Shown here piece after piece: positions 8,936 to 55,728 of a DNA stretch of 64,000 nt. How positions within the stretch are numbered: position 1 is the first letter of the stretch; every line of letters starts with the position of its first letter. The stretch covers positions 15,501 through 79,500 of the forward strand of contig CAZHKE010000004.1 in NCBI GenBank assembly GCA_964532485.1. Reading direction: 5' to 3'. This stretch comes from an uncultured Bifidobacteriaceae bacterium (GTDB lineage: Bacteria > Actinomycetota > Acidimicrobiia > IMCC26256 > PALSA-555). The position numbers were made by a program, and so were the translations under genes. The notes beneath the pieces are model-generated. The model made no database searches and had not been told where the DNA came from. It worked only from the letters and a program-made list of their open reading frames with translations.

Positions 8936-9880
8936 TCACGGCGTCGCGGCGCTCTGGCCGTCGCGGGCGGGGAGGCCGAGGCGGGACCGCACCTCGGCGG
9001 CGGTCGCGGGCTCGAGGCCGTGCGCCGACACGAGGTCGGCGGCACGCCGCGTGAGCTCGCCGTTCGTCGCCTCCGGGAAGGCATCGGGGCAGTCGCCGAT
9101 GCCGACACGCAGCCCCTGGCCCCGGTCGAGCGCCGCCCGCCACAACGTCTCGCACACCCCGGCGTCGTAGATCGCGTACGGGACCACGACGCCCTCGTAG
9201 TCGACGTCGTCGGGAACCTGGGCGACGTACGCGTCGAGCCCCGCGACGGTCGGGAACGGCCCGCTGGCCCAGCGCTCGGAGAGGAACCACTTCATGAGCA
9301 GCGGTGGCTCGAGGATGCCGGCCCAGAGCGCGTGCACCGAGTAGCGCAGGTAGGTGACGTCGAAGATGCCGAGCGTGGGGTGCAAGCCCCGAGCGCGCGC
9401 CTGAGCGAGCACCCACTCGAGCTCGTCGGGCGCGTTGATCGCGACCTGGTGATCTGCGGGCAGGAGGTCGAGCGGGGCGAATGTGCGGCGGTCACGATCC
9501 CAGAGCGTGACGTTGCGTGAGCCGATGTCGAGCGGCGCCAGCTCGAGCGGGGCACTCGACGGAGCGTCCGCGAGCGACCACACGTGGCGGTAGCGCTCTT
9601 CGCGCCGCACCCGAGGCGGATAGGTCGGGTAGCACAACAGGTCGCACTCCGCCGCGATGAGCTGCATGGCGGCTCGATAGACACCGTCATCGAGCCACAC
9701 CTGCGCGCCGTCGGGGTCTCTCGCGTGGAAATGCACGATCGACGCGCCGGCATGCGCGGCCTCGACCGCGGCCGCCGCGACCTCGTCCGGCCCGTACGGC
9801 ACGTGCGGGTTCTGGCCCTTCGACGCCGTCTCGTTGAGTCCGACCTCGATGATCGCCCTGCCGCGCTCGGCGAGTCGCAC
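8936..9880 (-). CDS. Beta-keto acid cleavage enzyme (BKACE / DUF849, 3-keto-5-aminohexanoate cleavage enzyme family), paralog 1
   Basis: Only the C-terminal 314 codons of track ORF 8936..10783 are kept, from the in-frame GTG at 9880. Sequence: RAIIEVGLNETASKGQNPHVPYGPDEVAAAAVEAAHAGASIVHFHARDPDG. The upstream part of the track ORF is an out-of-frame read through livF. Confidence 0.85.
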   Translation of the reverse strand: MRLAERGRAIIEVGLNETASKGQNPHVPYGPDEVAAAAVEAAHAGASIVHFHARDPDGAQVWLDDGVYRAAMQLIAAECDLLCYPTYPPRVRREERYRHVWSLADAPSSAPLELAPLDIGSRNVTLWDRDRRTFAPLDLLPADHQVAINAPDELEWVLAQARARGLHPTLGIFDVTYLRYSVHALWAGILEPPLLMKWFLSERWASGPFPTVAGLDAYVAQVPDDVDYEGVVVPYAIYDAGVCETLWRAALDRGQGLRVGIGDCPDAFPEATNGELTRRAADLVSAHGLEPATAAEVRSRLGLPARDGQSAATP

Positions 9881-40280: not shown

Positions 40281-40290
40281 GTTCCCCTCA

Positions 40291-40326: not shown

Positions 40327-40376
40327 AAGCCGCAAGCCTTGCGCGCCGCCGCAACGATACGGCATCCTGCGGCACC

Positions 40377-40985
40377 ATGTCCGTTCCTTCGAGCCCCCCC
40401 TCGGGACTGCCCGAAGACGCCTGGGTGCTGCTGCACGAGCTGCGTCTGCGCGGGTTGATGCCCGAGTTCGACGACGGGCTCGCCGACACCCTGTGCTCGG
40501 GTGGCCTGGCCCAGCGCAAGGGCGCGTTCTTGGCGCTCACTCCCGAGGGGCGCGCCGCGCACGCGACGTGGGCGCGTCTCGAGCCTGGGACCGAGGGTGA
40601 GGTGGCTGCGCAGCGGGCGTACGCCCAGTTCCTGCCGCTCAACCGCGCGCTGCTCCAGGTCAGCACCGACTGGCAGGTACGGCCCGGCAACGTCCCGAAC
40701 GATCACCGCGACGCGCCGTACGACTGGGAGGTGATCGACCGGTTCGTCGCACTCGACGAGCGAGCCGGTCCGGTCGTGCGGCGCCTCGGCACGGCTGTCG
40801 ATCGCTTCGGCGGCTACCGGCCGCGGCTGCGCGAAGCCGTGCGAAAGGTCCAGGACGGCCAGCACGAGTGGCTCCTGTCGCCGCGCTGCGACTCGTACCA
40901 CACGGTCTGGATGCAGATGCACGAGGATCTCTTGCTCGCGCTCGGCCTCGACCGTGCGACCGAGGAACAGGCGCAGAGCTCATAG
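40377..40985 (+). CDS. Hypothetical protein (202 aa). Possibly a regulator; function unknown.
   Basis: Only the last 202 codons of track ORF 39195..40985 are kept, from ATG 40377. The rest is antisense to the LDI-like gene. Sequence: MSVPSSPPSGLPEDAWVLLHELRLRGLMPEF...WEVIDRFVALDERAGPVVRRLG. Codon usage looks genuine. I recognised no family. Confidence 0.6.
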   Translation: MSVPSSPPSGLPEDAWVLLHELRLRGLMPEFDDGLADTLCSGGLAQRKGAFLALTPEGRAAHATWARLEPGTEGEVAAQRAYAQFLPLNRALLQVSTDWQVRPGNVPNDHRDAPYDWEVIDRFVALDERAGPVVRRLGTAVDRFGGYRPRLREAVRKVQDGQHEWLLSPRCDSYHTVWMQMHEDLLLALGLDRATEEQAQSS

Positions 40986-41507: not shown

Positions 41508-41517
41508 GGTCCGTGAC

Positions 41518-43192: not shown

Positions 43193-43233
43193 CGGACCTG
43201 CCGCGGTCGCCCCACTCGGTGCCTGCCCCGATG

Positions 43234-45241: not shown

Positions 45242-45451
45242 ATGGCGATCGAGGTCCGCATCGACGAGGGCGCCTGCATGGGCTCGCACGAGTGCTCCTT
45301 CTGGGCACCAGGGGTCTTCGACAACCGTGAGGACGGCAAGGCGTTCGTCGTCGACACGTCGGCGCAGCCCCGCGACAAGATCGTCGATGCGGCGAAGCGG
45401 TGCCCGAACTTCGCGATCGCCGTCTTCGAGGACGGCACGCAGATCGCGTGA
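45242..45451 (+). CDS. Small ferredoxin, [3Fe-4S]-type as commonly paired with actinobacterial P450s
   Basis: 69 aa with the cluster motif CMGSHEC...CP (CxxHxxC...CP). Preceded by GGAGACGGAGG. Confidence 0.8.
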   Translation: MAIEVRIDEGACMGSHECSFWAPGVFDNREDGKAFVVDTSAQPRDKIVDAAKRCPNFAIAVFEDGTQIA

Positions 45452-45460
45452 CCGGCGGCG

Positions 45461-46648
45461 TCAGGCCGGCGTGAACACCACCGGCAGGTGCTTGGGGCCG
45501 CGGAAGGCAAAGAAGTTGACCTTCTCGTAGACGAAGTCGGGTGCAAGCCGAGGCTCGGCGACGTGGTCGAACAGCTCGTTCATCAGGATGCGGGTCTGCA
45601 GACGAGCCAACGGCGCGCCGACGCACAGGTGCGGCCCGAGGCCGAACGCCATGTGGTTGGTCACCAGGCCGCGGTCGAGGTCGAACTCCGCGGCATGGTC
45701 GTAGACCGATTCGTCGCGGTTGGCCGATCCCATGCTGACGATCACCCGCTCGCCCTGCTTGATCGGACACTCCGCGAGATCGGTGTCGCGTGTCGCGGTC
45801 CGGAACATGAGCTGGACCGGCGAGTCGTGGCGCAGCGACTCCTCGATGGCGGCAGGCAGGAGCTCGCGATCCGCGCGCACGCGCTGGTACCGCTCGGGGA
45901 CCCGGATCAGCTCGTGGCAGAGGTTCGCGATCAAGTTGGTCGTCGTCTCGTTCCCCGCCATGAGCATGAAGCGGACCTGCGTGACGACCTCGGTGTCGGT
46001 CAGGTGGCGGCCGTCGGTGAGCTCGTGCGAGATCATCCGCGTGATGATGTCGTCGGGTGGGTCGTCCTCGGCGCGACGCAGCCGCACCTGCTCGAGGATG
46101 TACGCGTTGAACTCGTGCTCCGTGTCCGTGCGGGTGCGCTGGCCGCCCGGTGACGATGCCTTGTCCTCGACCATGTCGGCCGTCCACGCGTGGAAGCGGT
46201 CGTGGTCCGACTCGGGCACGCCGAGCATGTTCGCGATGACCTTCGACGGCAGCGGCACCGCGAAATCGGTGACGAGGTCGGCTCGGCCGGTCGACGCGAA
46301 GCGTCCGACGACGTCCTCGGCGAGCGCGCGGATGTACGGCTCGGCATCGGCGATCGCGGCCGGGGACAGCGCGGTGAGGAGCAGCCGACGGATCGGCCCG
46401 TGGCGGGGTGGATCGATCTCGTTCAGGGTCTGCTCCTCGGCCGGCTTCTCGCCGCCGAGGCGCAGGCCGCCCGCGTTCGAGAAGATCTCCCAGTTGCGGA
46501 AGACGAACGCGGTGTCGGGGTGGCGAACCACGAAGTTCACGCCGGGGACGGGCTTGCTGACCGGGCTGCGGTCGCGGAGCTCGGCCAGCCGCTCGTACGG
46601 TTCGGCAGCATCGTCCGGGTCGAGGGGGTTGAACGCCTCGTCGGCCAC
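45461..46648 (-). CDS. Cytochrome P450
   Basis: Track ORF 45461..47266 was trimmed to GTG 46648. FGLGPHLCVGAPLARLQ, MAGNETTTN, EESLRHDSPV. A promoter-like TTGACA-17nt-CAAGAT ends 6 nt before the GTG. Confidence 0.9.
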   Translation of the reverse strand: MADEAFNPLDPDDAAEPYERLAELRDRSPVSKPVPGVNFVVRHPDTAFVFRNWEIFSNAGGLRLGGEKPAEEQTLNEIDPPRHGPIRRLLLTALSPAAIADAEPYIRALAEDVVGRFASTGRADLVTDFAVPLPSKVIANMLGVPESDHDRFHAWTADMVEDKASSPGGQRTRTDTEHEFNAYILEQVRLRRAEDDPPDDIITRMISHELTDGRHLTDTEVVTQVRFMLMAGNETTTNLIANLCHELIRVPERYQRVRADRELLPAAIEESLRHDSPVQLMFRTATRDTDLAECPIKQGERVIVSMGSANRDESVYDHAAEFDLDRGLVTNHMAFGLGPHLCVGAPLARLQTRILMNELFDHVAEPRLAPDFVYEKVNFFAFRGPKHLPVVFTPA

Positions 46649-46726: not shown

Positions 46727-47527
46727 ATGGACCTGGGCCTGGAGGGCAAGGTGGCGCTGATCGCCGGGGCGAGTGAGGGGATGGGTCGGGGCACCGCGCT
46801 CGTCCTCGGCGCCGAGGGCGCGCAGCTCGCGCTGGTCGCGCGCACGGCGGCCACGCTCGAGAAGACCGCCGCAGAGGTCGCGGAGCGAACCGGCGCGGAG
46901 GTCGCGCCCTTCGCAGCCGACGTGATCGACACCGCTGAAGTCGAGCGGGTCGTCGCCGAGGTGAGAGACAGGTTCGGAACCGTCGACGTGCTGGTGAACA
47001 CGGTGGGTGCCTGCGAGACGGTGCCAGAGCTCGCCGACCGCACCGACGACGTGTGGCAGCGTGCATACGACTCGGTCCTCATGGCGGCGGTGAGGGCCTG
47101 CCGAGCGGTGGTCCCGATCATGCAGGAGCACGGTGGGGGAGCAATCGTCAACATCTCGGCGATGTCGGTGCGTCATTGGATCCCTCGCATCGAGCACTAC
47201 TCGGCGGCCAAGGCTGCGCTCGCGCACTTCACGAAGAACCTCGCGCGTGAGTTCGCACACGATCACATTCGTTCGAACGCGGTGATGCCGGGCTGGATCG
47301 GCTCGGAGAGCGTGCGCCGGAACCTCGAACCGCGTTGTCGTGACCTCGGCCTCGACACAGTGGACGACTACTTCCCGATCGGCAACGAGCGCATGGGTGG
47401 CGTCACCTGGGCGGACCGCATGGGCACGCCCGAGGAGATCGGCAACGTCGTCGCGTTCCTTGCGTCGGAGCGGGCGAGCTACGTCAACGGCGCGCTCGTC
47501 AACGTCGACGGCGGCTCGAGCTTCTGA
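46727..47527 (+). CDS. Short-chain dehydrogenase/reductase, paralog of 16096..16878
   Basis: Track ORF 46190..47527 was trimmed to ATG 46727, 5 nt after GGGAGGAG. KVALIAGASEGMGRGTAL, NISAMSVRHWIPRIEHYSAAKAAL, AHFTKNLAREFAHD, a C-terminal NVDGGSSF. Confidence 0.9.
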   Translation: MDLGLEGKVALIAGASEGMGRGTALVLGAEGAQLALVARTAATLEKTAAEVAERTGAEVAPFAADVIDTAEVERVVAEVRDRFGTVDVLVNTVGACETVPELADRTDDVWQRAYDSVLMAAVRACRAVVPIMQEHGGGAIVNISAMSVRHWIPRIEHYSAAKAALAHFTKNLAREFAHDHIRSNAVMPGWIGSESVRRNLEPRCRDLGLDTVDDYFPIGNERMGGVTWADRMGTPEEIGNVVAFLASERASYVNGALVNVDGGSSF

Positions 47528-47566
47528 CCGGCGCGCGGGGGCATCCGGGCGGCTCGTGGACCGGCA

Positions 47567-49288
47567 TCACGGGGGATCCGCTCCCGGCGTCGACGCGCCG
47601 TCAGCCATGAGCTCGACGTCGCCGCGCGTGCCGTCCACGGTGACCGTCTGACCGGTCGCGAGGCGCGTCGAGCAGTCCTTGACGTTGATGACACACGGGA
47701 TCCCGAGCTCGCGGGCGATCACCGCGCCGTGCGAGAGCGCGCCGCCGAGGTCGATCACCGCCGCGGCGGCGTCGAGGAAGAGCGGTGTCCACGCCGGGTC
47801 GGTGGTGCGCGCCACGAGGACCTCACCCGGCTGGAGGTCGGCGGCGAACGGATCGGTGACGACCCGCACCTTGGCGGTGGCCATGCCCGGCGACGCGCCG
47901 AGCCCGTGCAACACCGGGCTGTCTGTCACCCCGGACCCGCCGACCGGCGCGGACGGGAGCAGCCCGAGCTGGCGAATGCGCTCGTCGGGAACGACGTCGA
48001 CCGAGCCGGGCGCCGCGAGGAACAGCTCGGGGAGCTCGAGGACGCGCGCGCGCTCGTGCACGCCGCGACGCCGCGCGACGTCGTCACGGCGATCAGGCGG
48101 GTTGGCCCGCACCACGTCGGCGACCACCTCGTCGAACGTGAGGAACCATCCGTCCTCGGGACGGTCGATCGCGCCACGGTCGACGAGCCGTCGCGCGGCC
48201 TCGCGGGCAGCGAGCCGGAGCCGCGCCACGCCCAACACCTCGGGCACCTTCGTGTTCTCCCGCCAGCGCAGGTGATGCTCGAGGCTCCGGAGCAGCCCGG
48301 CGAGAACTGGCCGGCGCGGTCCGGCATCCGCGCGAAGCCGCGCGCGCGCCGCGGCGACATCGCGTTCGACCGCGCGGTTGCGCTCGTCGCCGCGCGACCT
48401 CGTCTGCTCGACGAGCATCTCGAGGTACCGGTCGTCCTCGCCCCACGGGCGTGACGCGAGCTCGTACTCGATCGGTCCGCGGAACCCGTACTCCGTACGC
48501 CACGCGTCGAGTGTCATCAAGCCGTCGCCGACGCGACCGAGTGCAGTCATCGCATCGCTCGTGTGGATCCCGCCGATGTTGGTCATCGCGCGAGCCGCCA
48601 GTGCCGGACCCTCGTCCCCGCTGGTGCGCGTCGCGAGCTTCACGAGCTGCTCGTAGACGCTCGCTGCGATCATGTTCGACACGAGGAGCGGGACGCGCCA
48701 ACGCTCTGCGTTGACTGCGTAGAACGCGAGCTCTGCGACGAGCTCGGAGTCGTCGACGGCCGCCCAGTCGAGGTCAAGCGCCTGCTCCCAACGGCGACGA
48801 TTCTCCGCCTCGTAGACGCGGGAGTCGCGGGGGTATCGCCGCATCGCGCGCAGGACCCGCGCGCCGACCGAGGCGATCTGGCGTGGGCTGCCGCCGCCCG
48901 CCGGCTCGGCCCAGTCCGGGTCGGGCGGCAGACCGAAGTACTGCTCGCCGACCGCCTGCGCCGACCAGCCCGGCACGGCATCGGCCATGCGGAGCGTCGG
49001 CTCGAGCCCGACGGCGACGAACCCGTAGAACACGCCGGCACAGTCGACGACCGGCGCGCGCTCGATCAGGCCGAGCACGTCGGTGTACGTGGTCGGCAAC
49101 GAGCGGATCTGGGGCACCGCGACCGCCGTCTGCGTGAGCGGCGTCACCGGGTTCGGCCACTGGTCGGCGCCGTTGGCCCGGGTGTAGAGCCGCGGCTCGG
49201 CGGGCCACGTGCAGAGCTCGTCGTCGAGGTTCGCGAGGTCGCGCACGAGGTCCTCGGGTGTGTGCGCCGCCCTGTTGGGTCGCGTCAT
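47567..49288 (-). CDS. PEP-utilizer swivel-histidine protein without a recognisable ATP-grasp domain (RPH/PpsA-like substrate region plus mobile His domain), paralog b
   Basis: Track ORF 47567..49369 was trimmed to ATG 49288 (AAGGAG upstream). N-terminal ANGADQWPNPVTPLTQ. C-terminal GASPGMATAKVRVV...QPGEVLVARTTDPAWTPLFLDAAAAVIDLGGALSHGAVIARELGIPCVINV. Length ~573 aa. Confidence 0.85.
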   Translation of the reverse strand: MTRPNRAAHTPEDLVRDLANLDDELCTWPAEPRLYTRANGADQWPNPVTPLTQTAVAVPQIRSLPTTYTDVLGLIERAPVVDCAGVFYGFVAVGLEPTLRMADAVPGWSAQAVGEQYFGLPPDPDWAEPAGGGSPRQIASVGARVLRAMRRYPRDSRVYEAENRRRWEQALDLDWAAVDDSELVAELAFYAVNAERWRVPLLVSNMIAASVYEQLVKLATRTSGDEGPALAARAMTNIGGIHTSDAMTALGRVGDGLMTLDAWRTEYGFRGPIEYELASRPWGEDDRYLEMLVEQTRSRGDERNRAVERDVAAARARLRADAGPRRPVLAGLLRSLEHHLRWRENTKVPEVLGVARLRLAAREAARRLVDRGAIDRPEDGWFLTFDEVVADVVRANPPDRRDDVARRRGVHERARVLELPELFLAAPGSVDVVPDERIRQLGLLPSAPVGGSGVTDSPVLHGLGASPGMATAKVRVVTDPFAADLQPGEVLVARTTDPAWTPLFLDAAAAVIDLGGALSHGAVIARELGIPCVINVKDCSTRLATGQTVTVDGTRGDVELMADGASTPGADPP

Positions 49289-49304
49289 GGGCTCTCGCAC
49301 TCCT

Positions 49305-50162
49305 TCACGAGAGCCGGCGCAGGATGCCGTGCTCGGCGACCGCGGTCCCGTGGCCAGCCGCACCCGCATCGAGTGCCATGCACTCCTCGTAGGCCGCGAA
49401 CGTCGGCCCGCGCCGTTCGACCCCCATCGGTGCCCAGAACCCGACGCTGCTGCCGGCGCGCAACGTCAACGGACCGGTGCCCTCGACGACGACATCGAGT
49501 GCCCCCAGCAGCCCGGAGGCGGTCCGTGTGATCTCGGCGCTCACCACGGGCGTGGCGCTCGTGCCGAGCCGGTAGCCGCCGACCCGTGTCCCGCCGTCGG
49601 GCTCGAGGAACTTCGTCACGGTCAGGTCCCAATCGTCGAAGCACGCTCCGAGTGCGAGGTACTCGACGAACATCAGCGACTCGTCACGGAAGCCCCACGT
49701 GCGGTCGCGGAACCCGCGTGCCTCGACGTCGACGCGCCGATCGGCGATGATCAAGGTTCCGGTGACGTCGGCACCTTGCTGGTAGTGGGTGAGGGCGGGG
49801 TGTCCGGGCAACGGCGGGATCAGGTCGAGCGCGGTGTAGTCGGCGGGCACGTGGCGCGGCGTGGCGATGAGGTCGAGCGACATCCCTTCCGCGCGGACGC
49901 GGACGGGACCGTCGACGCCGAAGTCGATCGAGTCGCCGGTGAAGGTCGACGGTCCGAGGGGTTCGACGACCTCGGCGAGCCGACCGTCGACGACCACGCT
50001 CGCGCGAGCGCGACCGCCGTGGCCGGGCGACGTCGACACGTGGACCGCGCCACAGACGCCTCGCTCCTGGTCGAAGAACGAGAGGAACGCGTTCTCCCGC
50101 CATGGTGCGGTCTCGTCGTCCCGGGCGTGGAAGGGCTCGGCGAGTGGACCCCAGGTCGTCAC
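49305..50162 (-). CDS. Hypothetical protein (285 aa), beta-rich. No family recognised.
   Basis: Track ORF 49305..50390 was trimmed to GTG 50162, which overlaps the upstream stop (GTGA). Sequence: VTTWGPLAEPFHARDDETAPWRENAFLSFFDQERGVCGAVHVSTS...RGFRDRTWGFRDE. Confidence 0.65.
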   Translation of the reverse strand: MTTWGPLAEPFHARDDETAPWRENAFLSFFDQERGVCGAVHVSTSPGHGGRARASVVVDGRLAEVVEPLGPSTFTGDSIDFGVDGPVRVRAEGMSLDLIATPRHVPADYTALDLIPPLPGHPALTHYQQGADVTGTLIIADRRVDVEARGFRDRTWGFRDESLMFVEYLALGACFDDWDLTVTKFLEPDGGTRVGGYRLGTSATPVVSAEITRTASGLLGALDVVVEGTGPLTLRAGSSVGFWAPMGVERRGPTFAAYEECMALDAGAAGHGTAVAEHGILRRLS

Positions 50163-51400
50163 TCGTCCACGACACGCTGCGCCTTGTAGGCCGACCGCGG
50201 CAGCGTCCCATCGGGCACGGCCTCGACGACCACCGGCACACCGATCGCAGCCGTGAGCCGGTCCGCGAGATCGCCGGCAGGGGTGCCCTCGATGCGGACC
50301 GTGAGCACGTCGGCGGGGGAGGCGGGGCGAACGAGCACGAACTCGGCGTCGGCGGGCACCTCCATCCACACGTCGATCGGGAGCACCCATCGGCCTTGCA
50401 CCTCGACGATGTCCTTGCCGCGGCCCTCCCAGAACGCACGCCGCGAGGTCTCGCCGCAGTCGCAGGGCTCGGACTCGAGCCGGATGACGTCCTCCATGTC
50501 GTAGCGGATCATCGAGTTGTCGCGACCGAGCGACGTGATCACGAAGTAGCCGCGCTGCCCGTCAGGCACGGGGGCTCCGGTGGCGGGGTCGAGCGCCTCG
50601 ACGATCGCGTAGTCCTCGGCCAGGTGCGAGCCGCGCCCGGGTGAGCACGCGCTGCCGAGGAAGCCCACGCACTCCTGGCCCGCGCTGATGCGGTCGTACT
50701 GGTACGTGGGGCCGATCTCCTCGGGCTCCGGGAGTGTCCCCTGGTAGCCGAGGCGGGCCGCGGCCTCACGGAACCGGTGGAGCGCGGCCGGGAACAGCCC
50801 CCAGTGGTCGATCGGGATGTGCTCGATCGCGCGCAGCGCCGTCTCGGCAGCGTCCACCGACTCGGGCGGACCCAATGAGATCGAGAGGCACCCCATCGAC
50901 TCGTAGAGCGCTGAGATGAACGCCTGACCGCCGTTGAGATAGCCGGGATGCGCGTTGGCCACGATCATCCCGGGCCGGATGCCGAGACGCCACTGCATGC
51001 GCGCGCCGAGCTCGCATTCGAGCGCGAGGTCGTGCCGCGTCCACAGCGAGAACGTCGGTCGGCCGGTCGTCCCCGTCGACATCGCGAGCCTGATCGCACC
51101 GCGCAGGCCCGAGACGCGGTAGTCGCCGACGGGCGGGTGCTCGGCCTCGTTCTCGCGCAACGCCTGTTTCTGGAAGCGGGGGATGCGCGGGAGGTCGTCG
51201 AGCGTCTTGACGTCGTCGGGTCGGATGCCGGCCGCGTCGAAGCGGCGCCGGAAGAATCCCGTGCCCTCGTAGGCGCGCCCGACGGCTTCGCGCAGCCGCT
51301 CCTCTTGCAGCGCACGCAGCGCGTCGCGCGGCATCGTCTGCGCCTCTTCGTTCCAATAGCGCCGGTCGGTCGCAGGGGTGATGTCTGTGCTCGAGGGCAA
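50159..51400 (-). CDS. PaaK / F390 synthetase-type adenylate-forming enzyme, paralog 2
   Basis: Track ORF 50159..51664 was trimmed to TTG 51400 (GAGGAGAG 5 nt upstream). The N-terminus aligns to paralog 1 (RYWNEEAQTMPRDALRALQEERL vs ELWDPAVQALDPTEVEARAAAGL). Motif MSTGTTGRPTFSLW. Confidence 0.8.
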   Translation of the reverse strand: MPSSTDITPATDRRYWNEEAQTMPRDALRALQEERLREAVGRAYEGTGFFRRRFDAAGIRPDDVKTLDDLPRIPRFQKQALRENEAEHPPVGDYRVSGLRGAIRLAMSTGTTGRPTFSLWTRHDLALECELGARMQWRLGIRPGMIVANAHPGYLNGGQAFISALYESMGCLSISLGPPESVDAAETALRAIEHIPIDHWGLFPAALHRFREAAARLGYQGTLPEPEEIGPTYQYDRISAGQECVGFLGSACSPGRGSHLAEDYAIVEALDPATGAPVPDGQRGYFVITSLGRDNSMIRYDMEDVIRLESEPCDCGETSRRAFWEGRGKDIVEVQGRWVLPIDVWMEVPADAEFVLVRPASPADVLTVRIEGTPAGDLADRLTAAIGVPVVVEAVPDGTLPRSAYKAQRVVDE

Positions 51401-51419
51401 GGGAGCTCTCCTCGGGTGA

Positions 51420-52325
51420 TCAAGCCAGTGTGAATCGGACGCGCACGTCGGCAGCGGTCGCGAGCGGCCGCCCCGCGTCGTCGGCCCAGCGCGCCGCGTC
51501 CTCGACGAGCGCTGCATTGGTCCTGGAAGGGTGGGCCGCCGGGTTGTCTCCCACGCCCACACGGATGTTGCCGCCGAGCTCCAGCGCCCGCCGACACACC
51601 CGCTCGACGGTCGCGGGGTCGTCGATCGTGTACGGCACCACCATCCACTCGACGTCGATGTCATCGGGGATCTGGTGCAGGTGGAACTCGAGCGCGGCCG
51701 TGTCCGGTGCCGGTCCGACCGCCCAGGAGCCCATCACGAATATCTTGAAGAACACGGGCTGGCGCAGCCGTCCGGCGCGCACGAGGTTGACCATCGTGCG
51801 CGTGAAGCCCACGTCGAAAGCCGCCACGCTCGGGTGGAGGCCGAGCTCGTCGAAGCGCGCGAGCGCGGTGAGCGTGAAGGCGAGCGAGTTCTGCACCACC
51901 GTCCGGCCTGCGAGCGTGTCGATCGCGCCGACGAAGTCACACGCGTCCTCGTCCCACGTGATCACGTTCACCGAGCCGATGTCGATCGGTGCGACCTGGA
52001 GCCCATGCCGCTCGCGCAGGATCCAACAATGGCCGAGCCGGTCCTCGATGGAGTCCGGGGGTTGTGTCGGGTACGTCGGATACGCGACCACGGAGCTGCG
52101 GGCGCGCATCTGCTCGAGCGCGGCGCCGTACAGCTCGGCGTCCGCGGCGCGTTGCTCGCCCGTCTCGGGGTCGCGTGCGTGCCAGTGCACGACCGACGCG
52201 CCGGCGGCTTCACAGTGCTGCGCGTCGACAGCGATGTCCTCGGGAGTGATGGGGACGTGGGGATGATCAGCGCGACTGATGCCCTCGTTGAGTCCCACCT
52301 CGACGATGACGGCGTCGCGCTCCAC
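51420..52325 (-). CDS. Beta-keto acid cleavage enzyme (BKACE / DUF849), paralog 2
   Basis: Track ORF 51420..53108 was trimmed to GTG 52325, 5 nt after the upstream stop. AVIVEVGLNEGISRADHPHVPITPEDIAVDAQHCEAAGASVVHWHARDPETG. Roughly half the residues match paralog 1 by eye. Confidence 0.85.
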   Translation of the reverse strand: MERDAVIVEVGLNEGISRADHPHVPITPEDIAVDAQHCEAAGASVVHWHARDPETGEQRAADAELYGAALEQMRARSSVVAYPTYPTQPPDSIEDRLGHCWILRERHGLQVAPIDIGSVNVITWDEDACDFVGAIDTLAGRTVVQNSLAFTLTALARFDELGLHPSVAAFDVGFTRTMVNLVRAGRLRQPVFFKIFVMGSWAVGPAPDTAALEFHLHQIPDDIDVEWMVVPYTIDDPATVERVCRRALELGGNIRVGVGDNPAAHPSRTNAALVEDAARWADDAGRPLATAADVRVRFTLA

Positions 52326-52330
52326 CGGCG

Positions 52331-53197
52331 TCAGGCCTTCGCCTCGGGACGCCAGCTCGGCGGGCGCTTCTCCTGGAAGCTGCGCATGCCCTCGACGGCC
52401 TCCGGCGACCGCATTGCGAGCAGGAAGTCGTCGAGGCGAATCGGCACCAATGCCTGGTTCACCATCCGCTTCGCGATCGCGCGCGCGCCGGGTGCGGTGC
52501 GCCGGACGAGCGCGGTCACCGATTCCATCTCTTCCTCGAGCCGTTCGTGTGCGACGACCTTGGCAACGAGACCGGCCCGTTCCGCGGCGTCGGCGTCGAG
52601 CTCCTCCGCCGTGTAGATCATCCACCGTGCCTTTGCCAGCCCGATGTGCATCGGGAGGCGAGGAGGGACGAACGGGTCGACGAGACCACGCAGCAGCTCC
52701 GGGACGCGGAAGCGCGCGTGCTCCGACGCGATCACGAGGTCGCTCATCAAGACGATGATCAAGCCGGCCGCCTGGCACAGGCCGTTGACCGCGGTGATCA
52801 CCACCTTCGAGCACCGTTCGAAGCTCTGGTAGGGGAAGGCGCCCTCGGCGGCCGCGAGCTTGCCGACGAGATCGGCTGCCCACTCGTCGGCGCCGATCGA
52901 GAGGTCGCCGCCGGGCACGAAGTACTGGTCGCCGGTCGCGCTGATCGTGATCACGTCGACCGAGTCGTCGAGCTCTGCGAGCAGCAGGGCGCGGCGGAGG
53001 CCCTCGTACATGGCCGGCGTGAGCGCGTTCGCCTTGTCGGGACGGTCGATGACGAGTCGGGCGACGCCGTCGCGAGCCTCGAAGTGCAACCCTTCGGTCT
53101 CGCGCCACTGCGCGCCCGTGTCGACCACCGCAGCATCTTGCGGACGGCCTCTCGAATTGTCAAACATGGTGAGACGATTCGACCCCAGGGTCTTCAT
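52331..53197 (-). CDS. Enoyl-CoA hydratase/isomerase family protein
   Basis: Track ORF 52331..53386 was trimmed to ATG 53197 (GGAGAAGAGGG upstream). ATG 53167 is an alternative. VARLVIDRPDKANAL, VITAVNGLCQAAGLIIV. Confidence 0.8.
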   Translation of the reverse strand: MKTLGSNRLTMFDNSRGRPQDAAVVDTGAQWRETEGLHFEARDGVARLVIDRPDKANALTPAMYEGLRRALLLAELDDSVDVITISATGDQYFVPGGDLSIGADEWAADLVGKLAAAEGAFPYQSFERCSKVVITAVNGLCQAAGLIIVLMSDLVIASEHARFRVPELLRGLVDPFVPPRLPMHIGLAKARWMIYTAEELDADAAERAGLVAKVVAHERLEEEMESVTALVRRTAPGARAIAKRMVNQALVPIRLDDFLLAMRSPEAVEGMRSFQEKRPPSWRPEAKA

Positions 53198-53258
53198 GCC
53201 CTCTTCTCCCGGCGCGTCGCGCGCGTCACGGTGTGAACGGCACCGGCCGGCTGACCAC

Positions 53259-54950
53259 ATGAGCGGTCGCCGCGCTCCCTGGCGCCTGCCGCGCGCGGAG
53301 ACCGCCGTGCCCGCCGACGTGCCCCCGCCCGACGGCACACCGCTCGTCGATGCGGGCCCACCCGGTGTCGCCGGCGAGCTCGACACGCGGATCGACCCCC
53401 GCTTTCCGCTCTACACCGCGTCGAACCTCTCCGAGGCGTTCCCCGGACCCATGACGCCGCTGTCGCTCGACCTCACGATGCACGCGATGCGCGGCTCCTC
53501 GCGCGTGTCGGCCACCCTCTACGGGCTCGAGGAGCCGCTCGCCACCGAGCTGCTGCGCTCGGTCGCGGTGTTCGGCCACCGCGTCTACGGCGGAGTCTCG
53601 ATCCTGCGTGAGCTCGCCGAGGTGATGCCCGGATGGTCCCCGGAGGAGATCGACCATCAGTACCTCGGGATCCCGCTGCCCGAGGAGCGCACTCGCACCC
53701 GTGTGTCGACGGGCGCCGTGATGCGCGGCCTGCGGGTCGGCACCACCGTCGCTCTCCTTGCCGCGGGCCTTCGTCGGGAGGTCGACGAGGTCGTTGCGAC
53801 GGCGGCGCGGCTCACGTCCGATCTTGATGCGCTGGCCGGGCTCGACGACACCGCGCTCGCCAGGCGGATCACCACGTTGCACGACGAGGTCGTGCAGGCG
53901 TGGGTCGTCTCGACCTTCTGCACGGTCCTGGCCGGCGGCGTCCTCTCGGCGATCGAGAAGGCCGGTGGTGTGCCGGTTCGCTCGGGTCCGGGCGCACGCC
54001 GCCTCGACAGCGTCGGCGCGCTCGCTGGCGTGGCGGCCATCGCCGACCGGGCTCGGAGTGAGCCCGCGGTTGCCGAGGTGCTGCGCACGAAGCCGCCCGC
54101 GGAAGCCCTGCGCGAGCTACGGGAACGAGCTCCGTGGCTCGCACGGTCGATCGACGACGTCATCCGCGACCACGGACACCGCGGACCCGGCGAGACCGAC
54201 CTCGCGAGCCCCATGTTCGCCGACGACCCTGCACTGCTCGTCGACGTCGTCAGGAAGACGCTCGATGCCCCCGCGCGGCCCGCGCCCGACGTGCCGGCGC
54301 TCTCACGGCACCAGCGTGTGCTCGCTCGCCTCGCGCACCGGACGATGCTCACGCGCGAGCGCTCTCGTGATGCGGTCGTACGGATGACCCATGCGCTGCG
54401 GCTCGCGGTGCGCGAGCGTGGAGTCCGACTCGCCGCGGCCAGAACGCTGGGGCGCCCCGACGATGTGCACTACCTCGTGTTCGCCGAGCTGCGCGACCCG
54501 CCGCGGGACGCGCGCGACGCCGTGGCCAGGCGGCGCGCCGAGCGTGCTCGCCTGGCGAGGGTTCGCATGCCTCCCCTCTTCGCCGGTCACTGGGAGCCCG
54601 AGGTCGACGCCGGTGCCCGGCTCGAGCCCGGAGAGGTGATCAGTGGGATCCCGGCGTCGCCCGGCACGGTCCGGGCGAGGGTGCGCGTGCTCGAGGCCGA
54701 CTCGCTCCACGACCTCGAGCCCGATGAGGTGCTCGTCGCCGCCACCACCGACACCGGGTGGACGCCGCTCTTCGCGTTCGCCGCCGCGGTGGTCACCGAC
54801 ATCGGAGCACAGATCTCGCATGCCGCGGTCGTCGCCCGGGAGTTCGGCGTCCCGGCCGTCGTCGGCACCCGAGAGGCGACGCGGCGCCTGCGCACCGGCC
54901 AGCTCGTCGACGTCGACGGCGCCGCGGGGACGGTGACGGCGGTCGACTGA
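53259..54950 (+). CDS. PEP-utilizer swivel-histidine protein without a recognisable ATP-grasp domain, paralog c
   Basis: Track ORF 52860..54950 was trimmed to ATG 53259. [19 protein letters not shown] near the N-terminus. C-terminal GIPASPGTVRARVRVL...[50 protein letters not shown]. Length ~563 aa. Confidence 0.85.
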   Translation: MSGRRAPWRLPRAETAVPADVPPPDGTPLVDAGPPGVAGELDTRIDPRFPLYTASNLSEAFPGPMTPLSLDLTMHAMRGSSRVSATLYGLEEPLATELLRSVAVFGHRVYGGVSILRELAEVMPGWSPEEIDHQYLGIPLPEERTRTRVSTGAVMRGLRVGTTVALLAAGLRREVDEVVATAARLTSDLDALAGLDDTALARRITTLHDEVVQAWVVSTFCTVLAGGVLSAIEKAGGVPVRSGPGARRLDSVGALAGVAAIADRARSEPAVAEVLRTKPPAEALRELRERAPWLARSIDDVIRDHGHRGPGETDLASPMFADDPALLVDVVRKTLDAPARPAPDVPALSRHQRVLARLAHRTMLTRERSRDAVVRMTHALRLAVRERGVRLAAARTLGRPDDVHYLVFAELRDPPRDARDAVARRRAERARLARVRMPPLFAGHWEPEVDAGARLEPGEVISGIPASPGTVRARVRVLEADSLHDLEPDEVLVAATTDTGWTPLFAFAAAVVTDIGAQISHAAVVAREFGVPAVVGTREATRRLRTGQLVDVDGAAGTVTAVD

Positions 54951-54975
54951 CCCGACCGTCGACAGGGTCCGTGCA

Positions 54976-55710: not shown

Positions 55711-55728
55711 GCGCTAGAGAGTGTGCCG

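What the first reader, a model, noticed from the sequence alone, without database searches (positions are those of the whole stretch)
47567..54950. Second paralogous module: ECH, BKACE, PaaK-like, unknown protein and swivel-His protein, with a third swivel-His paralog divergent
The minus-strand operon runs in this order:
- crotonase, 53197 to 52331;
- BKACE, 52325 to 51420;
- PaaK-like, 51400 to 50159;
- 285-aa unknown protein, 50162 to 49305 (GTGA overlap);
- swivel-His protein, 49288 to 47567.

A further swivel-His paralog (53259..54950) is transcribed divergently from a 61-bp gap.

The same trio (PaaK-like, BKACE, ATP-grasp-less swivel-His protein) occurs around 4208-9880. A recurring association between paralogous copies inside one window argues for a functional link rather than chance. 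All three swivel-His proteins keep the phospho-acceptor His (GGLLSH, GGALSH, GAQISH).
Basis: partly seen in the sequence, partly recalled or inferred. Interest (0 to 1): 0.8.

Follow-up and report, generated by a model that had tools for sequence, protein, structure and literature searches.

The report
Split kinase plus phosphate-lyase catabolic operon
The genes are real and the 'swivel-His' proteins do lack an ATP-binding domain, but that makes them subunits of a known class of split small-molecule kinases. The conserved partnership is with the neighbouring 'unknown' protein, which looks like a phosphate-eliminating lyase, rather than with the PaaK-like and BKACE-like genes.

Summary
All six genes sit at the stated coordinates, and every product is an exact match to a publicly called protein.

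- **SwB, SwC and SwA:** they are rifampin-phosphotransferase-like proteins without the ATP-grasp domain. A helical substrate domain precedes a phospho-His swivel. This architecture is already known from HpeH, CreH and PpsA, the substrate/His components of two-component dikinases.
- **ATP-grasp partner:** none occurs in about 70 kb here, or within about 10 kb of seven orthologous loci.
- **285-aa 'unknown' protein (DUF7065):** its predicted fold matches AttH/CrtC-type proteins, and the highest TM-scores are to 25-phosphosteroid lyase. In seven independent loci from other bacteria it lies next to, or near, a small-molecule kinase.
- **Best explanation:** kinase plus phospho-lyase, giving ATP-dependent removal of a hydroxyl group, set in a P450/CoA-dependent catabolic operon.
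- **'BKACE' genes:** they belong to a DUF849 subfamily that lacks Kce's third zinc ligand (Glu replaced by Gly), so beta-keto-acid cleavage is doubtful.
- **PaaK/BKACE/Sw trio:** it is conserved only in close relatives and is absent around more distant homologues. The two modules are not a recent block duplication.

The parts
47567..49288 (-). SwB: substrate-binding plus phospho-His swivel component of a split RPH-like dikinase (573 aa, His520 in GGALSH)
   Evidence: Pfam PEP-utilizers at residues 486-556. The AF2 model has pLDDT 90.9 with a helical N-terminal ~420 aa. The best Foldseek match is the Listeria rifampin phosphotransferase RIF-binding plus His domains, E 5e-21, TMq 0.68. It is an exact public protein.
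49305..50162 (-). DUF7065 protein (285 aa): AttH/CrtC-fold, 25-phosphosteroid-lyase-like; proposed phospho-ester lyase partner of SwB
   Evidence: Weak Pfam DUF7065 hit. The AF2 model has pLDDT 94.4 and is all-beta. Foldseek matches are kievitone hydratase (lowest E-value, 7e-10, TMq 0.52), 25-PSL 9fzn/9g4c (E 1.5e-9, highest TMq 0.68-0.69), AttH and Diels-Alderases. It lies next to or near kinases in 7 of 7 independent loci. The conserved motif is RDRTWGxRDE, with several invariant Arg and His residues.
50159..51400 (-). PaaK2: PaaK-family adenylate-forming ligase (413 aa)
   Evidence: NCBIfam PaaK hit of 130 bits, below the 646-bit cutoff. PDB 4r1l phenylacetate-CoA ligase, E 9e-35. The P-loop STGTTGRPT and the C-terminal Lys406 are conserved.
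51420..52325 (-). BKACE2: DUF849-superfamily enzyme (301 aa), non-canonical subfamily (HxH, D115, N146, G-D instead of E-D)
   Evidence: Pfam BKACE 177 bits. The best PDB sequence match is cis-epoxysuccinate hydrolase CESH[D] at 104 bits, against about 57 bits for Kce-type entries. Gly at the Kce Glu zinc-ligand position is present in all 122 subfamily members.
52331..53197 (-). ECH2: crotonase / enoyl-CoA hydratase family, first gene of the operon
   Evidence: Pfam ECH_1, E 1.6e-37. It is conserved at the head of the operon in L001, L003-L006, L010 and L011.
53259..54950 (+). SwC: second ATP-grasp-less RPH-like swivel-His protein (563 aa, GAQISH), divergent from the operon; closest to SwA (50%)
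   Evidence: Pfam PEP-utilizers. NCBIfam PRK05865 aligns residues 6-562 to profile positions 269-837. PDB RPH 5fbs, E 5e-29 over residues 260-562. It is conserved divergently in L001, L003, L005/6, L010 and L011.
46727..47527 (+). SDR, convergent with SwB; conserved neighbour of the operon
   Evidence: Pfam adh_short. It is at 81-94% identity in L003-L006, L010 and L011.
45461..46648 (-). Cytochrome P450, conserved neighbour
   Evidence: Pfam p450. It is conserved in L003-L006, L010, L011 and L012.
45242..45451 (+). Small ferredoxin (69 aa), conserved next to the P450
   Evidence: Called gene with Fer4_13/Fer4_15 in L001, L003 and L005.
4208..5485 (+). PaaK1: PaaK-family ligase of module 1; its stop overlaps the SwA start by 4 bp
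   Evidence: NCBIfam PaaK 89 bits. It is 32% identical to PaaK2. It is conserved with SwA in L020 and L028.
5482..8103 (+). SwA: NAD-dependent SDR/epimerase domain fused to an RPH-like substrate domain and swivel His (873 aa; Rv2047c-type architecture)
   Evidence: Pfam Epimerase plus PEP-utilizers. NCBIfam PRK05865 hit of 522 bits over residues 4-872, below the 1509-bit cutoff.
8100..8912 (+). CbbQ/NorQ-type AAA+ ATPase between SwA and BKACE1
   Evidence: Pfam AAA_5 plus CbbQ_C. It is conserved in L020 and L028.
8936..9880 (-). BKACE1: DUF849-superfamily enzyme of the same non-canonical (G-D) subfamily type
   Evidence: Pfam BKACE 161 bits. Best PDB match CESH[D] at 104 bits; it has GiGD where canonical members have GlED.
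40410..40985 (+). 190-aa protein homologous to the ~200-aa proteins translationally coupled to VadK/PpdK-type ATP-grasp plus swivel genes in other DUF7065-Sw loci; here it has no ATP-grasp gene beside it
   Evidence: tblastn E 1e-20 to 3e-26, at 34-41% identity, to the copies in L008, L009, L021 and L023. No Pfam or NCBIfam hit.

Best explanation
The region is a catabolic operon for a hydrophobic, probably branched or isoprenoid-like substrate. The organism is a high-GC actinobacterium, probably from the Acidimicrobiia.

**Shown**
- SwB, SwC and SwA are rifampin-phosphotransferase-like proteins. Each has a helical substrate-binding domain and a phospho-His swivel domain, and none has an ATP-grasp domain. 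This is the architecture of HpeH, CreH and PpsA, the substrate/His components of two-component small-molecule dikinases.

**Inferred**
- An ATP-grasp protein encoded elsewhere in the genome, of the VadK/PpdK or HpeI type, loads the swivel His from ATP. The His then moves to the helical domain and phosphorylates a hydroxyl group on the substrate.
- The adjacent 285-aa DUF7065 protein has an AttH/CrtC fold that resembles 25-phosphosteroid lyase. It eliminates the phosphate to give an alkene. Together SwB and DUF7065 would carry out an ATP-driven dehydration, as 25-hydroxysteroid kinase and 25-phosphosteroid lyase do in Sterolibacterium.
- The conserved P450, ferredoxin and SDR would create or further oxidise the hydroxyl group.
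- The PaaK-like ligase would make the CoA thioester of the resulting acid.
- ECH and the DUF849 enzyme would act on the CoA or acid intermediates. The DUF849 enzyme is probably not a classical beta-keto-acid cleavage enzyme.

**How the genes group**
- SwB plus DUF7065 is a separable sub-module.
- SwC, ECH, DUF849 and PaaK form a lineage-specific association.
For: **Sw architecture**
- Pfam and NCBIfam find only the PEP-utilizers swivel plus RPH/RedH/PigC C-terminal homology.
- The AF2 model has pLDDT 90.9. Its best Foldseek matches are RPH-Lm 5fbt/5fbu/5hv1 over the whole chain.
- PDB sequence hits to RPH reach E 5e-29.
- The His is invariant.
- The precedent is HpeHI, CreHI and PpsAB (PMC12167813).

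**DUF7065**
- The model has pLDDT 94.4. The highest TM-scores are to 25-PSL, at 0.68-0.69.
- There are many invariant Arg and His residues and an RDRTWGxRDE motif, which would suit phosphate binding.
- DUF7065 lies directly beside an Rph_4th/swivel gene in L007, L008, L009, L021 and L023. It lies beside an APH-type phosphotransferase in Rhodococcus pNit (L022). It lies 8 kb from a full-length RPH-like gene in L024.
- 25-HSK itself is reported as most similar to actinobacterial 'phosphotransferase family' proteins (PMC8449060).
- The ~350-aa proteins next to kinases in L009, L021 and L023 are homologous to DUF7065, with hhalign probability 99.7%.
- DUF7065 proteins and two of those ~350-aa proteins (L021, L023) hit the Rv3169 family weakly. 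Rv3168 and Rv3169 form an operon in M. tuberculosis (PMC5340868). Rv3168 appears in a review of aminoglycoside kinases; its APH-type fold is from memory.

**ATP-grasp in trans**
- L008, L009, L021 and L023 all carry a VadK-type ATP-grasp plus swivel gene and a ~200-aa partner beside the DUF7065-Sw pair.
- The window keeps a homologue of that 200-aa partner.

**Operon conservation**
- The operon with SDR, P450 and ferredoxin is conserved.
- The sub-module is separable. L011 lacks DUF7065 and SwB but keeps the rest. L007 has only DUF7065 and Sw.
Against: - No ATP-grasp gene occurs in the window, in the 5 kb to its left, or in the sequence held for seven orthologous loci (up to 10 kb each side). 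The positive control was found at E 7e-76. The loading step is therefore unshown here.
- DUF7065 has no detectable sequence similarity to 25-PSL or to any PDB chain. The same fold also houses hydratases and Diels-Alderases, so lyase activity is inferred from fold and context only.
- In Sterolibacterium the kinase is not RPH-like, and the kinase and lyase genes are not adjacent (PMC8449060).
- The substrate is unknown, and no experiment supports any step.
- The tight translational coupling of PaaK2 to DUF7065 and of PaaK1 to SwA is not explained by a simple downstream CoA-ligase role.
Confidence: 0.5

Rival explanations
1. PaaK-like, BKACE and swivel-His proteins form one obligate functional unit acting on beta-keto acids. 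One version would be ketone to enol phosphate, as in PEP synthase, then carboxylation to a beta-keto acid, then BKACE cleavage with acetyl-CoA.
For: - The trio occurs twice in one window, with shuffle p of about 0.001.
- Both modules are conserved as operons in relatives.
- The two copies are old (32-50% identity) and have different gene orders. This could mean independent assembly driven by function.
- SwC, ECH, BKACE and PaaK persist in L011 even though SwB and DUF7065 are lost.
Against: - The DUF849 proteins lack Kce's third zinc ligand. Glu is replaced by Gly in all 122 subfamily members, as in the epoxide hydrolase CESH[D] (PMC6429283).
- None of 3 BKACE2-like loci at 58-67% identity has PaaK or Sw; two of them (L025, L026) have an F420-type PNPOx directly downstream and the third (L027) has one about 6 kb away.
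- None of 3 PaaK2-like loci at 58-63% identity has BKACE or Sw.
- None of 7 DUF7065-Sw loci in other bacteria has PaaK or BKACE.
- L012 has ECH and PaaK without BKACE.
- No carboxylase is present in the operon.
Confidence: 0.2
2. DUF7065 is a hydratase of the CrtC or kievitone-hydratase type. It adds water to a C=C bond, and the Sw protein then phosphorylates the new alcohol. The end product would be a phospho-lipid or phospho-terpenoid rather than an alkene. This parallels the proposed reduction and phosphorylation role of Rv2047c in mycoketide-phosphate synthesis.
For: - The lowest Foldseek E-value is to kievitone hydratase, and AttH/CrtC-type proteins share the fold.
- SwA has the Rv2047c architecture. 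Rv2047c has been proposed to release and phosphorylate the mycoketide chain (PMC2443190; PMC7058343).
Against: - The highest TM-scores are to the phospho-lyase.
- The Arg/His-rich invariant set fits an anionic phospho-substrate.
- The surroundings are catabolic: 4 ECH, 3 ACAD, 2 P450 and amidohydrolase genes flank module 2, with 2 more ACAD and 2 more P450 genes in the middle of the window.
Confidence: 0.15
3. The PaaK-like adenylating enzyme replaces the missing ATP-grasp domain. It would activate the swivel His or the substrate hydroxyl directly from ATP, so that PaaK plus Sw is a new kind of two-component kinase.
For: - No ATP-grasp occurs in about 70 kb here or around seven orthologous loci.
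- PaaK1 and SwA overlap by 4 bp, and PaaK2 and DUF7065 overlap by 4 bp.
- The PaaK family includes F390 synthetase, which adenylylates a hydroxyl group (NCBIfam hit; the chemistry is from general knowledge).
Against: - PaaK2 keeps the acyl-adenylate/CoA-ligase motifs and aligns along PaaK structures.
- PaaK2 homologues occur without any Sw gene (L013-L015).
- Every DUF7065-Sw locus outside this clade has a VadK-type ATP-grasp and no PaaK.
- All characterised relatives use an ATP-grasp (PMC12167813).
Confidence: 0.07
4. This is chance juxtaposition. The window is packed with expanded catabolic families, namely P450, ECH, ACAD, SDR and at least four Sw paralogs. The repeated neighbourhood would then have no shared function.
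For: - The families are heavily expanded in the window.
- A fourth Sw paralog lies just outside the window.
- The trio is not conserved at greater evolutionary distance.
Against: - Gaps within the operon are tight: 5, 19, -4 and 16 bp.
- Order and orientation are conserved down to 55-56% SwB identity in independent metagenomes.
- The shuffle gives p of about 0.001.
Confidence: 0.05

Closest known systems
HpeH / CreH / PpsA: substrate-binding plus swivel-His components of two-component small-molecule dikinases (HpeHI, CreHI, phenylphosphate synthase PpsAB)
   Same: - Size is about 550-600 aa.
- A RIF-binding-like domain is followed by a C-terminal swivel domain.
- The catalytic His lies about 50 residues from the C-terminus, and a Ser precedes it, as in PpsA and CreH.
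- There is no ATP-grasp in the same chain (PMC12167813).
   Different: - No HpeI/CreI/PpsB-type ATP-grasp gene is clustered here.
- The context is P450/CoA-dependent aliphatic-type catabolism rather than phenol catabolism.
- The protein is paired with a DUF7065 protein.
- One paralog (SwA) is fused to an SDR domain.
Rifampin phosphotransferase (RPH-Lm; PDB 5fbs, 5fbt, 5hv1)
   Same: It is the best structural and sequence match for the substrate and His domains.
   Different: RPH is a single chain with an N-terminal ATP-grasp of about 300 aa, which is absent here. Identity is only about 18% (Foldseek alignment).
25-hydroxysteroid kinase plus 25-phosphosteroid lyase of Sterolibacterium denitrificans (ATP-dependent dehydration; PDB 9fzn, 9g4c)
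   Same: The proposed logic is the same: alcohol to phospho-ester to alkene. The DUF7065 model matches the 25-PSL fold with TM 0.68-0.69.
   Different: - The kinase there is reported as most similar to 'phosphotransferase family' proteins and shows a sequential ternary-complex mechanism, so it is not an RPH-like phospho-His dikinase.
- The kinase and lyase genes are not adjacent there (PMC8449060).
- There is no detectable sequence similarity between DUF7065 and 25-PSL.
- That pathway is anaerobic and molybdenum-dependent, whereas this one is P450-linked.
M. tuberculosis Rv2047c (NCBIfam PRK05865 'sugar epimerase family protein')
   Same: SwA has the same three-part architecture of SDR/epimerase, RPH-like domain and swivel His, and aligns end to end.
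   Different: - The score of 522 bits is far below the 1509-bit equivalog cutoff.
- Rv2047c sits with pks12, not with PaaK or DUF849 genes (PMC7058343).
- Its biochemical function is unproven.
Kce / BKACE (3-keto-5-aminohexanoate cleavage enzyme family) and CESH[D] cis-epoxysuccinate hydrolase
   Same: - Both are in Pfam PF05853 with a TIM-barrel fold.
- The two His metal ligands are conserved.
- The D115, N140 and D251 equivalents of CESH[D] are conserved.
   Different: - The Glu zinc ligand of Kce is Gly here.
- The catalytic R11 and E190 of CESH[D] are Gly and Phe here.
- The proteins therefore fit neither characterised activity.
VadK (Rv1127c, 'PpdK') with its operonic partner Rv1126c
   Same: - Other DUF7065-Sw loci carry a PRK05878-type ATP-grasp plus swivel protein (882 bits, above the 456-bit cutoff) and a coupled ~200-aa protein.
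- The window has a homologue of that ~200-aa protein (PMC13400623).
   Different: - No VadK-type gene is in the window.
- That the ~200-aa protein corresponds to Rv1126c is inferred from size and arrangement and was not tested by sequence.

Membership tests
Two-component RPH-like small-molecule dikinase, substrate/His component (HpeH/CreH/PpsA type) | C-terminal PEP-utilizers swivel domain with the catalytic His | tested here: met
   PF00391 at 76-83 bits in SwA, SwB and SwC. The His is invariant in 36 sequences and Ser precedes it.
Two-component RPH-like small-molecule dikinase, substrate/His component (HpeH/CreH/PpsA type) | RIF-binding-like substrate domain N-terminal to the swivel domain | tested here: met
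   The AF2 model of SwB matches RPH-Lm over 615 columns, E 5e-21, TMq 0.68. Relatives carry Pfam Rph_4th.
Two-component RPH-like small-molecule dikinase, substrate/His component (HpeH/CreH/PpsA type) | No ATP-grasp domain in the same polypeptide | tested here: met
   No PPDK_N hit. The N-terminal 420 aa are helical. The ATP-grasp profile gives no hit.
Two-component RPH-like small-molecule dikinase, substrate/His component (HpeH/CreH/PpsA type) | A separate ATP-grasp component encoded with it | tested here: not met
   None was found in the window, in L028, or in the sequence held for L003-L005, L010, L011, L019 and L020. The positive control scored E 7e-76. The rest of the genome could not be searched.
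Two-component RPH-like small-molecule dikinase, substrate/His component (HpeH/CreH/PpsA type) | ATP-dependent phosphorylation of a small-molecule hydroxyl via phospho-His (ATP to AMP plus Pi) | not testable with these tools
   This needs enzyme assays.
Single-chain rifampin phosphotransferase / PEP synthase-like (NCBIfam RIF_Ptrans_rph, PRK06241) | N-terminal ATP-grasp (PPDK_N) domain, and a score above the family cutoff | tested here: not met
   Alignments start at profile positions of about 530-660. Scores are 110-124 bits against a 999-bit cutoff.
BKACE / Kce (beta-keto acid cleavage enzyme) | Membership of Pfam PF05853 above the gathering score | tested here: met
   177 and 161 bits against a cutoff of 24.8.
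BKACE / Kce (beta-keto acid cleavage enzyme) | His-His-Glu zinc triad (the G-L/M-E-D motif) | tested here: not met
   Both His are present. The Glu position is Gly in BKACE1, BKACE2 and 120 homologues. Canonical 3e49, 9zsc and 3lot have E-D.
BKACE / Kce (beta-keto acid cleavage enzyme) | Score above an NCBIfam equivalog cutoff (Kce, triacetate lyase or 3-oxoadipate enzymes) | tested here: not met
   The best score is 97 bits against a 382-bit cutoff.
CESH[D] cis-epoxysuccinate hydrolase | Catalytic D115 and E190 plus proton donor R11 (PMC6429283) | tested here: not met
   D115 is conserved, but R11 is replaced by Gly and E190 by Phe, and this holds in all 122 subfamily members.
PaaK-type phenylacetate-CoA ligase family | Adenylation motifs (P-loop TGTTG, C-terminal catalytic Lys) and overall alignment to PaaK structures | tested here: met
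PaaK-type phenylacetate-CoA ligase family | Equivalog-level score for PaaK itself | tested here: not met
   130 and 89 bits against a 646-bit cutoff. Identity to bona fide PaaKs is only 30-34%.
25-phosphosteroid lyase / AttH-CrtC fold | Fold similarity | tested here: met
   Foldseek E 1.5e-9, TMq 0.68-0.69 to 9fzn/9g4c. AttH, kievitone hydratase and Diels-Alderases also match.
25-phosphosteroid lyase / AttH-CrtC fold | Sequence homology to 25-PSL | tested here: not met
   No PDB chain scores at E <= 1 with the single sequence, or at E <= 10 with the 41-sequence profile.
25-phosphosteroid lyase / AttH-CrtC fold | Works on the product of a dedicated kinase | tested here: inconclusive
   A kinase lies adjacent or within 8 kb in 7 of 7 independent loci. 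This is context only, with no activity data.
Rv2047c family (NCBIfam PRK05865), for SwA | SDR plus RPH-like plus swivel architecture, and a score above the cutoff | tested here: inconclusive
   The architecture and end-to-end alignment are met. The score of 522 bits is below the 1509-bit cutoff.

The most novel reading that the evidence does not exclude
Actinobacteria may carry a widespread, undescribed ATP-dependent dehydration system with three parts.
- A VadK/PpdK-type ATP-grasp/His loader, with its ~200-aa partner.
- One or several interchangeable ATP-grasp-less RPH-like 'Sw' substrate modules.
- A DUF7065/Rv3169-type phospho-ester lyase.

In this Acidimicrobiia-like operon the system would be wired to P450 hydroxylation and CoA-dependent breakdown. 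That would make it an aerobic counterpart of the Sterolibacterium 25-HSK/25-PSL trick for getting past a blocked, for example tertiary, carbon.

A corollary concerns the orphan M. tuberculosis proteins Rv2047c, Rv1127c/Rv1126c and Rv3168/Rv3169. They would be parts of such split kinase or kinase-lyase systems.
Probability: 0.25. Interest if true: 0.8.

Novelty: new variant of a known kind. Interest (0 to 1): 0.55.

Why it matters
If the SwB-DUF7065 pair is a kinase plus phospho-lyase, three things follow.
- ATP-driven dehydration, so far known from one anaerobic steroid degrader, would extend to aerobic Actinobacteria and to a different kinase class.
- A DUF family of about 600 sequence clusters would gain a testable function.
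- The many ATP-grasp-less 'PEP-utilizing enzymes' annotated in actinobacterial genomes would have a rationale, including relatives of the M. tuberculosis proteins Rv2047c and Rv3169.

The analysis also warns against reading 'BKACE' annotations as beta-keto-acid cleavage. The whole subfamily sampled here (122 sequences) lacks a metal ligand.

If the idea is wrong, the locus is an ordinary lineage-specific catabolic operon.

Tried and rejected
1. **A hidden ATP-grasp in the N-terminal ~450 aa of the Sw proteins.** Rejected by Pfam and NCBIfam, the all-helical AF2 model, and the Foldseek match to the RIF-binding domain.
2. **An ATP-grasp partner elsewhere in the window.** All sizeable ORFs were scanned with Pfam. 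tblastn was run with VadK-type proteins. A six-frame search used a purpose-built ATP-grasp HMM over the window, L028 and seven orthologous loci. None was found, and the positive control scored.
3. **The EcKL-family kinase at 55639-56919 as the APH-type kinase seen beside DUF7065 elsewhere.** It has no detectable similarity to those genes, no PDB relative and no NCBIfam hit.
4. **Canonical BKACE or CESH[D] function for the DUF849 genes.** Catalytic or ligand residues are missing.
5. **Recent en-bloc duplication of the two modules.** PaaK1-PaaK2 identity (32%) equals PaaK2 against true PaaKs (30-34%). BKACE2 is 55-91% identical to many proteins outside its cluster but 42% to BKACE1. SwB is 43-52% identical to Sw proteins outside such modules but about 30% to SwA and SwC. 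Gene order also differs.
6. **Literature.** No paper holds both 'BKACE' and 'PEP-utilizing'. The NetSyn BKACE context paper has no occurrence of ligase, dikinase or phosphotransferase.
7. **Plasmid searches with BKACE2 and PaaK2.** Only distant hits of 34% identity or less were returned, so they were uninformative.
8. **Sequence or profile search of DUF7065 and of a ~350-aa relative against the PDB.** No hits.
9. **Promoter and terminator scan of 47300-55200.** Nothing above shuffled expectation.
10. **Genome-collection scan with the PaaK alignment.** It returned only 9 loci, so broad statistics were not possible.

Full report
**Observation**

- ECH, 53197-52331
- DUF849/BKACE family, 52325-51420
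- PaaK-like, 51400-50159
- a 285-aa protein, 50162-49305
- SwB, 49288-47567

SwC (53259-54950) is divergent after a 61-bp gap. Gaps within the operon are 5, 19, -4 and 16 bp.

Five of the six module-2 products (all but the ECH), and SwA, PaaK1 and BKACE1 of module 1, are exact full-length matches to proteins called on a 112,544-bp NCBI contig. The closest loci in isolate and MAG genomes are labelled uncultured Acidimicrobiia.

The other trio lies around 4208-9880:
- PaaK1, 4208-5485
- SwA, 5482-8103, with an SDR/epimerase domain fused to its N-terminus
- a CbbQ-type AAA+ gene, 8100-8912
- BKACE1, 9880-8936

Pairwise identities are SwA-SwC 50%, SwB about 30% to both, PaaK1-PaaK2 32%, and BKACE1-BKACE2 42%.

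**What the swivel-His proteins are**

Pfam finds only the PEP-utilizers swivel domain, plus the SDR domain in SwA. NCBIfam aligns the proteins to the C-terminal two-thirds of RPH, RedH, PigC and PRK06241-type proteins, and to the Rv2047c-type model PRK05865. Relatives carry the newer Pfam domain Rph_4th.

An AlphaFold2 model of SwB has pLDDT 90.9 and pTM 0.91. It shows a helical N-terminal ~420 residues followed by the swivel domain. Its best PDB matches are the Listeria rifampin phosphotransferase structures, at E 5e-21, TMq 0.68 and 615 aligned columns. The N-terminal region is therefore the RIF-binding-like substrate domain, not a cryptic ATP-grasp.

The His is invariant and a Ser precedes it.

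This architecture was described in 2025 for HpeH, with CreH and PpsA named as homologues. The ATP-grasp is a separate protein in those systems (HpeI, CreI, PpsB). HpeH alone can transfer phosphate between substrates (PMC12167813). An ATP-grasp-less swivel-His protein is therefore real but not new.

**The missing ATP-grasp**

None of the following found a PPDK_N/ATP-grasp:
- Pfam scans of all sizeable ORFs;
- tblastn with VadK-type proteins;
- a six-frame search with an ATP-grasp HMM built here.

The HMM search covered the window, the 5.3 kb to its left (L028) and the sequence held for seven orthologous loci (up to 10 kb each side). The positive control scored E 7e-76.

L028 shows a fourth Sw paralog, another SDR fusion, just outside the window.

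In more distant loci that hold the DUF7065-Sw pair, the picture differs. These are Mycobacterium sp. (L008), Nocardioides (L009), an M. avium plasmid (L021) and a Diaphorobacter plasmid (L023). Each has a ~480-540-aa ATP-grasp plus swivel protein clustered with a translationally coupled ~200-aa protein. The L008 copy passes the NCBIfam cutoff for PRK05878, the Rv1127c type. Rv1127c is VadK. It autophosphorylates on a His and has the operonic partner Rv1126c (PMC13400623).

The window encodes a homologue of the ~200-aa protein at 40410-40985, but without a VadK-type neighbour. Loading in trans by an ATP-grasp protein encoded elsewhere is the most economical reading. It is not shown.

**The 'unknown' 285-aa protein**

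It is a weak DUF7065 hit and has no sequence relative in the PDB. Its model has pLDDT 94.4 and is an all-beta AttH/CrtC-type fold. The Foldseek matches are:
- kievitone hydratase;
- 25-phosphosteroid lyase (9fzn, 9g4c, 9g2i), with the highest TM-scores, 0.65-0.69;
- AttH;
- fungal Diels-Alderases.

The family has many invariant Arg and His residues and an RDRTWGxRDE motif. It comprises about 620 clusters at 50% identity.

Context is consistent across seven independent loci:
- DUF7065 lies directly beside an Rph_4th/swivel gene in L007, L008, L009, L021 and L023.
- It lies beside an APH-type phosphotransferase in Rhodococcus pNit (L022).
- It lies 8 kb from a full-length RPH-like gene in R. koreensis (L024).

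Larger ~350-aa proteins next to kinases in L009, L021 and L023 are homologous to DUF7065, with hhalign probability 99.7%. DUF7065 proteins and two of these larger proteins (L021, L023) weakly hit the Rv3169 family. Rv3168 and Rv3169 are an operon in M. tuberculosis (PMC5340868). Rv3168 appears in a review of aminoglycoside kinases; that it has an APH-type fold is from memory.

In Sterolibacterium, 25-hydroxysteroid kinase and a phospho-lyase dehydrate a tertiary alcohol at the cost of ATP. That kinase was reported as most similar to actinobacterial 'phosphotransferase family' proteins (PMC8449060).

I therefore propose that SwB phosphorylates a hydroxyl group and DUF7065 eliminates the phosphate. 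This rests on fold plus context. A hydratase role is the main alternative.

**The 'BKACE' genes**

Both pass the Pfam threshold. Their best PDB sequence match is the zinc-dependent cis-epoxysuccinate hydrolase CESH[D], at 104 bits and 31.6% identity. Kce-type entries score about 57 bits.

The Glu in the G-L/M-E-D motif is present in the canonical members 3e49, 9zsc and 3lot. A review states that only two of Kce's three metal ligands are conserved in CESH[D] (PMC6429283). That the missing ligand is this Glu (Kce E230) is from memory of the Kce structure paper. The position is Gly in BKACE1, BKACE2 and all 120 closest homologues. The CESH[D] catalytic residues R11 and E190 are Gly and Phe here.

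The subfamily is thus neither a proven BKACE nor a CESH. Its homologues at 58-67% identity have no PaaK or Sw gene nearby. Two of the three (L025, L026) have an F420-type PNPOx directly downstream and the third (L027) has one about 6 kb away, all with luciferase-like genes nearby. A PNPOx of this type is also in the window, at 56941-57387.

**Is the trio a unit?**

Module 2 is conserved, with the flanking SDR, P450 and ferredoxin, in L001, L003, L004, L005/6 and L010. Conservation holds down to 55-56% SwB identity. Module 1 is conserved in L020 and L028.

Several findings argue against an obligate unit:
- L011 keeps SwC, ECH, DUF849, PaaK, SDR and P450 but has lost DUF7065 and SwB without remnants.
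- L012 has ECH and PaaK without the DUF849 gene.
- L007 has only DUF7065 and Sw.
- PaaK2 homologues at 58-63% identity have neither partner (L013-L015).
- Sporichthya SwB, at 43% identity, has neither.

Each component has closer relatives outside such modules than its in-window counterpart. A recent block duplication is therefore excluded.

The double occurrence in one window is unlikely under a random gene order, with p of about 0.001. A lineage-specific functional link between PaaK, DUF849 and SwA/C-type proteins remains possible. It is not a broadly conserved system, and the beta-keto-acid chemistry is unsupported.

**Mechanism and confidence**

Shown:
- the domain architecture;
- conservation of the His;
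- operon conservation;
- absence of a local ATP-grasp;
- the fold of DUF7065 and its conserved pairing with kinases.

Inferred:
- loading of the swivel His in trans;
- phosphorylation of a hydroxyl made or processed by the P450, ferredoxin and SDR;
- phosphate elimination by DUF7065;
- CoA activation by PaaK2, with further processing by ECH and the DUF849 enzyme.

The wider window is rich in ECH, ACAD, P450, amidohydrolase and SDR genes and has an Ldi-like gene. This fits lipid or terpenoid-type catabolism. The substrate is unknown.

I put 0.85 on the split-dikinase assignment, about 0.5 on the kinase-lyase pair, and about 0.3 on the full pathway sketch.

**Verdict**

The finding is a new variant of known kinds: an HpeH-type dikinase component combined with a 25-PSL-like protein. 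It has moderate interest and clear experiments to settle it.

Noticed in passing
L028 1842-4460 (about 0.9-3.5 kb left of window position 1): A fourth ATP-grasp-less swivel-His paralog lies just outside the window. It is an 872-aa SDR fusion like SwA, next to a luciferase-like gene and convergent with a FadD-type AMP-binding gene that runs into window 1-~716. L019 has the equivalent copy at 51% identity to SwA.
   Followed up: partly
window 40410-40985 (+): This 190-aa ORF has no Pfam or NCBIfam hit. It is homologous (34-41% identity) to the ~200-aa proteins translationally coupled to VadK/PpdK-type ATP-grasp plus swivel genes in L008, L009, L021 and L023. Here it stands alone, immediately upstream of a deaminase and UPRTase. 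It overlaps the long minus-strand ORF 38415-40922, whose real product is a shorter Ldi-like protein.
   Followed up: partly
window 56941-57387 (+); L025 10935-11423; L026 10922-11377: An F420-type PPOX/PNPOx protein is immediately downstream of BKACE2-like genes in two unrelated metagenome contigs. It is also within 6 kb in L027, L011 and the window, at 48-51% identity. This is a deeper conserved partner of the DUF849 subfamily than PaaK or Sw.
   Followed up: partly
L011 11236-12361: An Acidimicrobiia MAG keeps SwC, ECH, DUF849, PaaK, SDR and P450 but has only a 1.1-kb gap where DUF7065 and SwB should be. No remnants were detected.
   Followed up: yes
window 8100-8912 (+): A CbbQ/NorQ-type AAA+ ATPase sits between SwA and BKACE1 and is conserved in L020 and L028. 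No von Willebrand-type partner gene was seen. Its role in module 1 is unexplained.
   Followed up: no
window 38415-40298 (-): A linalool dehydratase/isomerase-like (Ldi) domain protein has a long N-terminal extension. It is conserved about 7-9 kb from the operon in L005 and L011. It may hint at tertiary-alcohol or terpenoid metabolism, or may simply reflect synteny.
   Followed up: no
window 28571-31140 (-), 18230-19384, 31074-32006, 42176-43471, 32283-32801, 40986-42144: Two tandem S-adenosylhomocysteine-hydrolase-like genes lie among an unusual concentration of nucleoside-salvage genes. These are two IU-nucleoside hydrolases, an adenosine deaminase, two cytidine/dCMP-type deaminases, a UPRTase and a PNP/AMP-nucleosidase-like gene. 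They are interleaved with the catabolic genes.
   Followed up: no
window 55639-56919 (+): An EcKL/APH-superfamily kinase lies two genes from SwC. It has no detectable similarity to the APH-type phosphotransferases that flank DUF7065 in L021-L023, and no NCBIfam hit. Its substrate is unknown.
   Followed up: partly
L021 13376-14428; L023 17748-18809; L009 15659-16741: These ~350-aa hypothetical proteins lie directly beside PEP-utilizing or APH-type kinase genes. They are homologous to DUF7065 (hhalign probability 99.7%), and the L021 and L023 proteins weakly hit the Rv3169 family. Kinase plus AttH-fold pairs therefore seem to be a recurrent actinobacterial theme.
   Followed up: partly
literature (PMC7058343): In an M. 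tuberculosis TnSeq screen with high mycobactin, rv2047c (SwA-type), pks12 and ppdK (Rv1127c, the ATP-grasp plus swivel protein) all showed increased requirement. This would fit Rv1127c acting as the ATP-loading partner of the ATP-grasp-less Rv2047c. The authors do not claim this, and it was not tested here.
   Followed up: no
window 10587-13388 (-): A 933-aa ORF apparently fuses two branched-chain-type ABC permease domains with an ATPase domain. It lies next to a LivF-like ATPase and a 562-aa binding protein, downstream of module 1. The LivF-like gene is also seen in L020.
   Followed up: no
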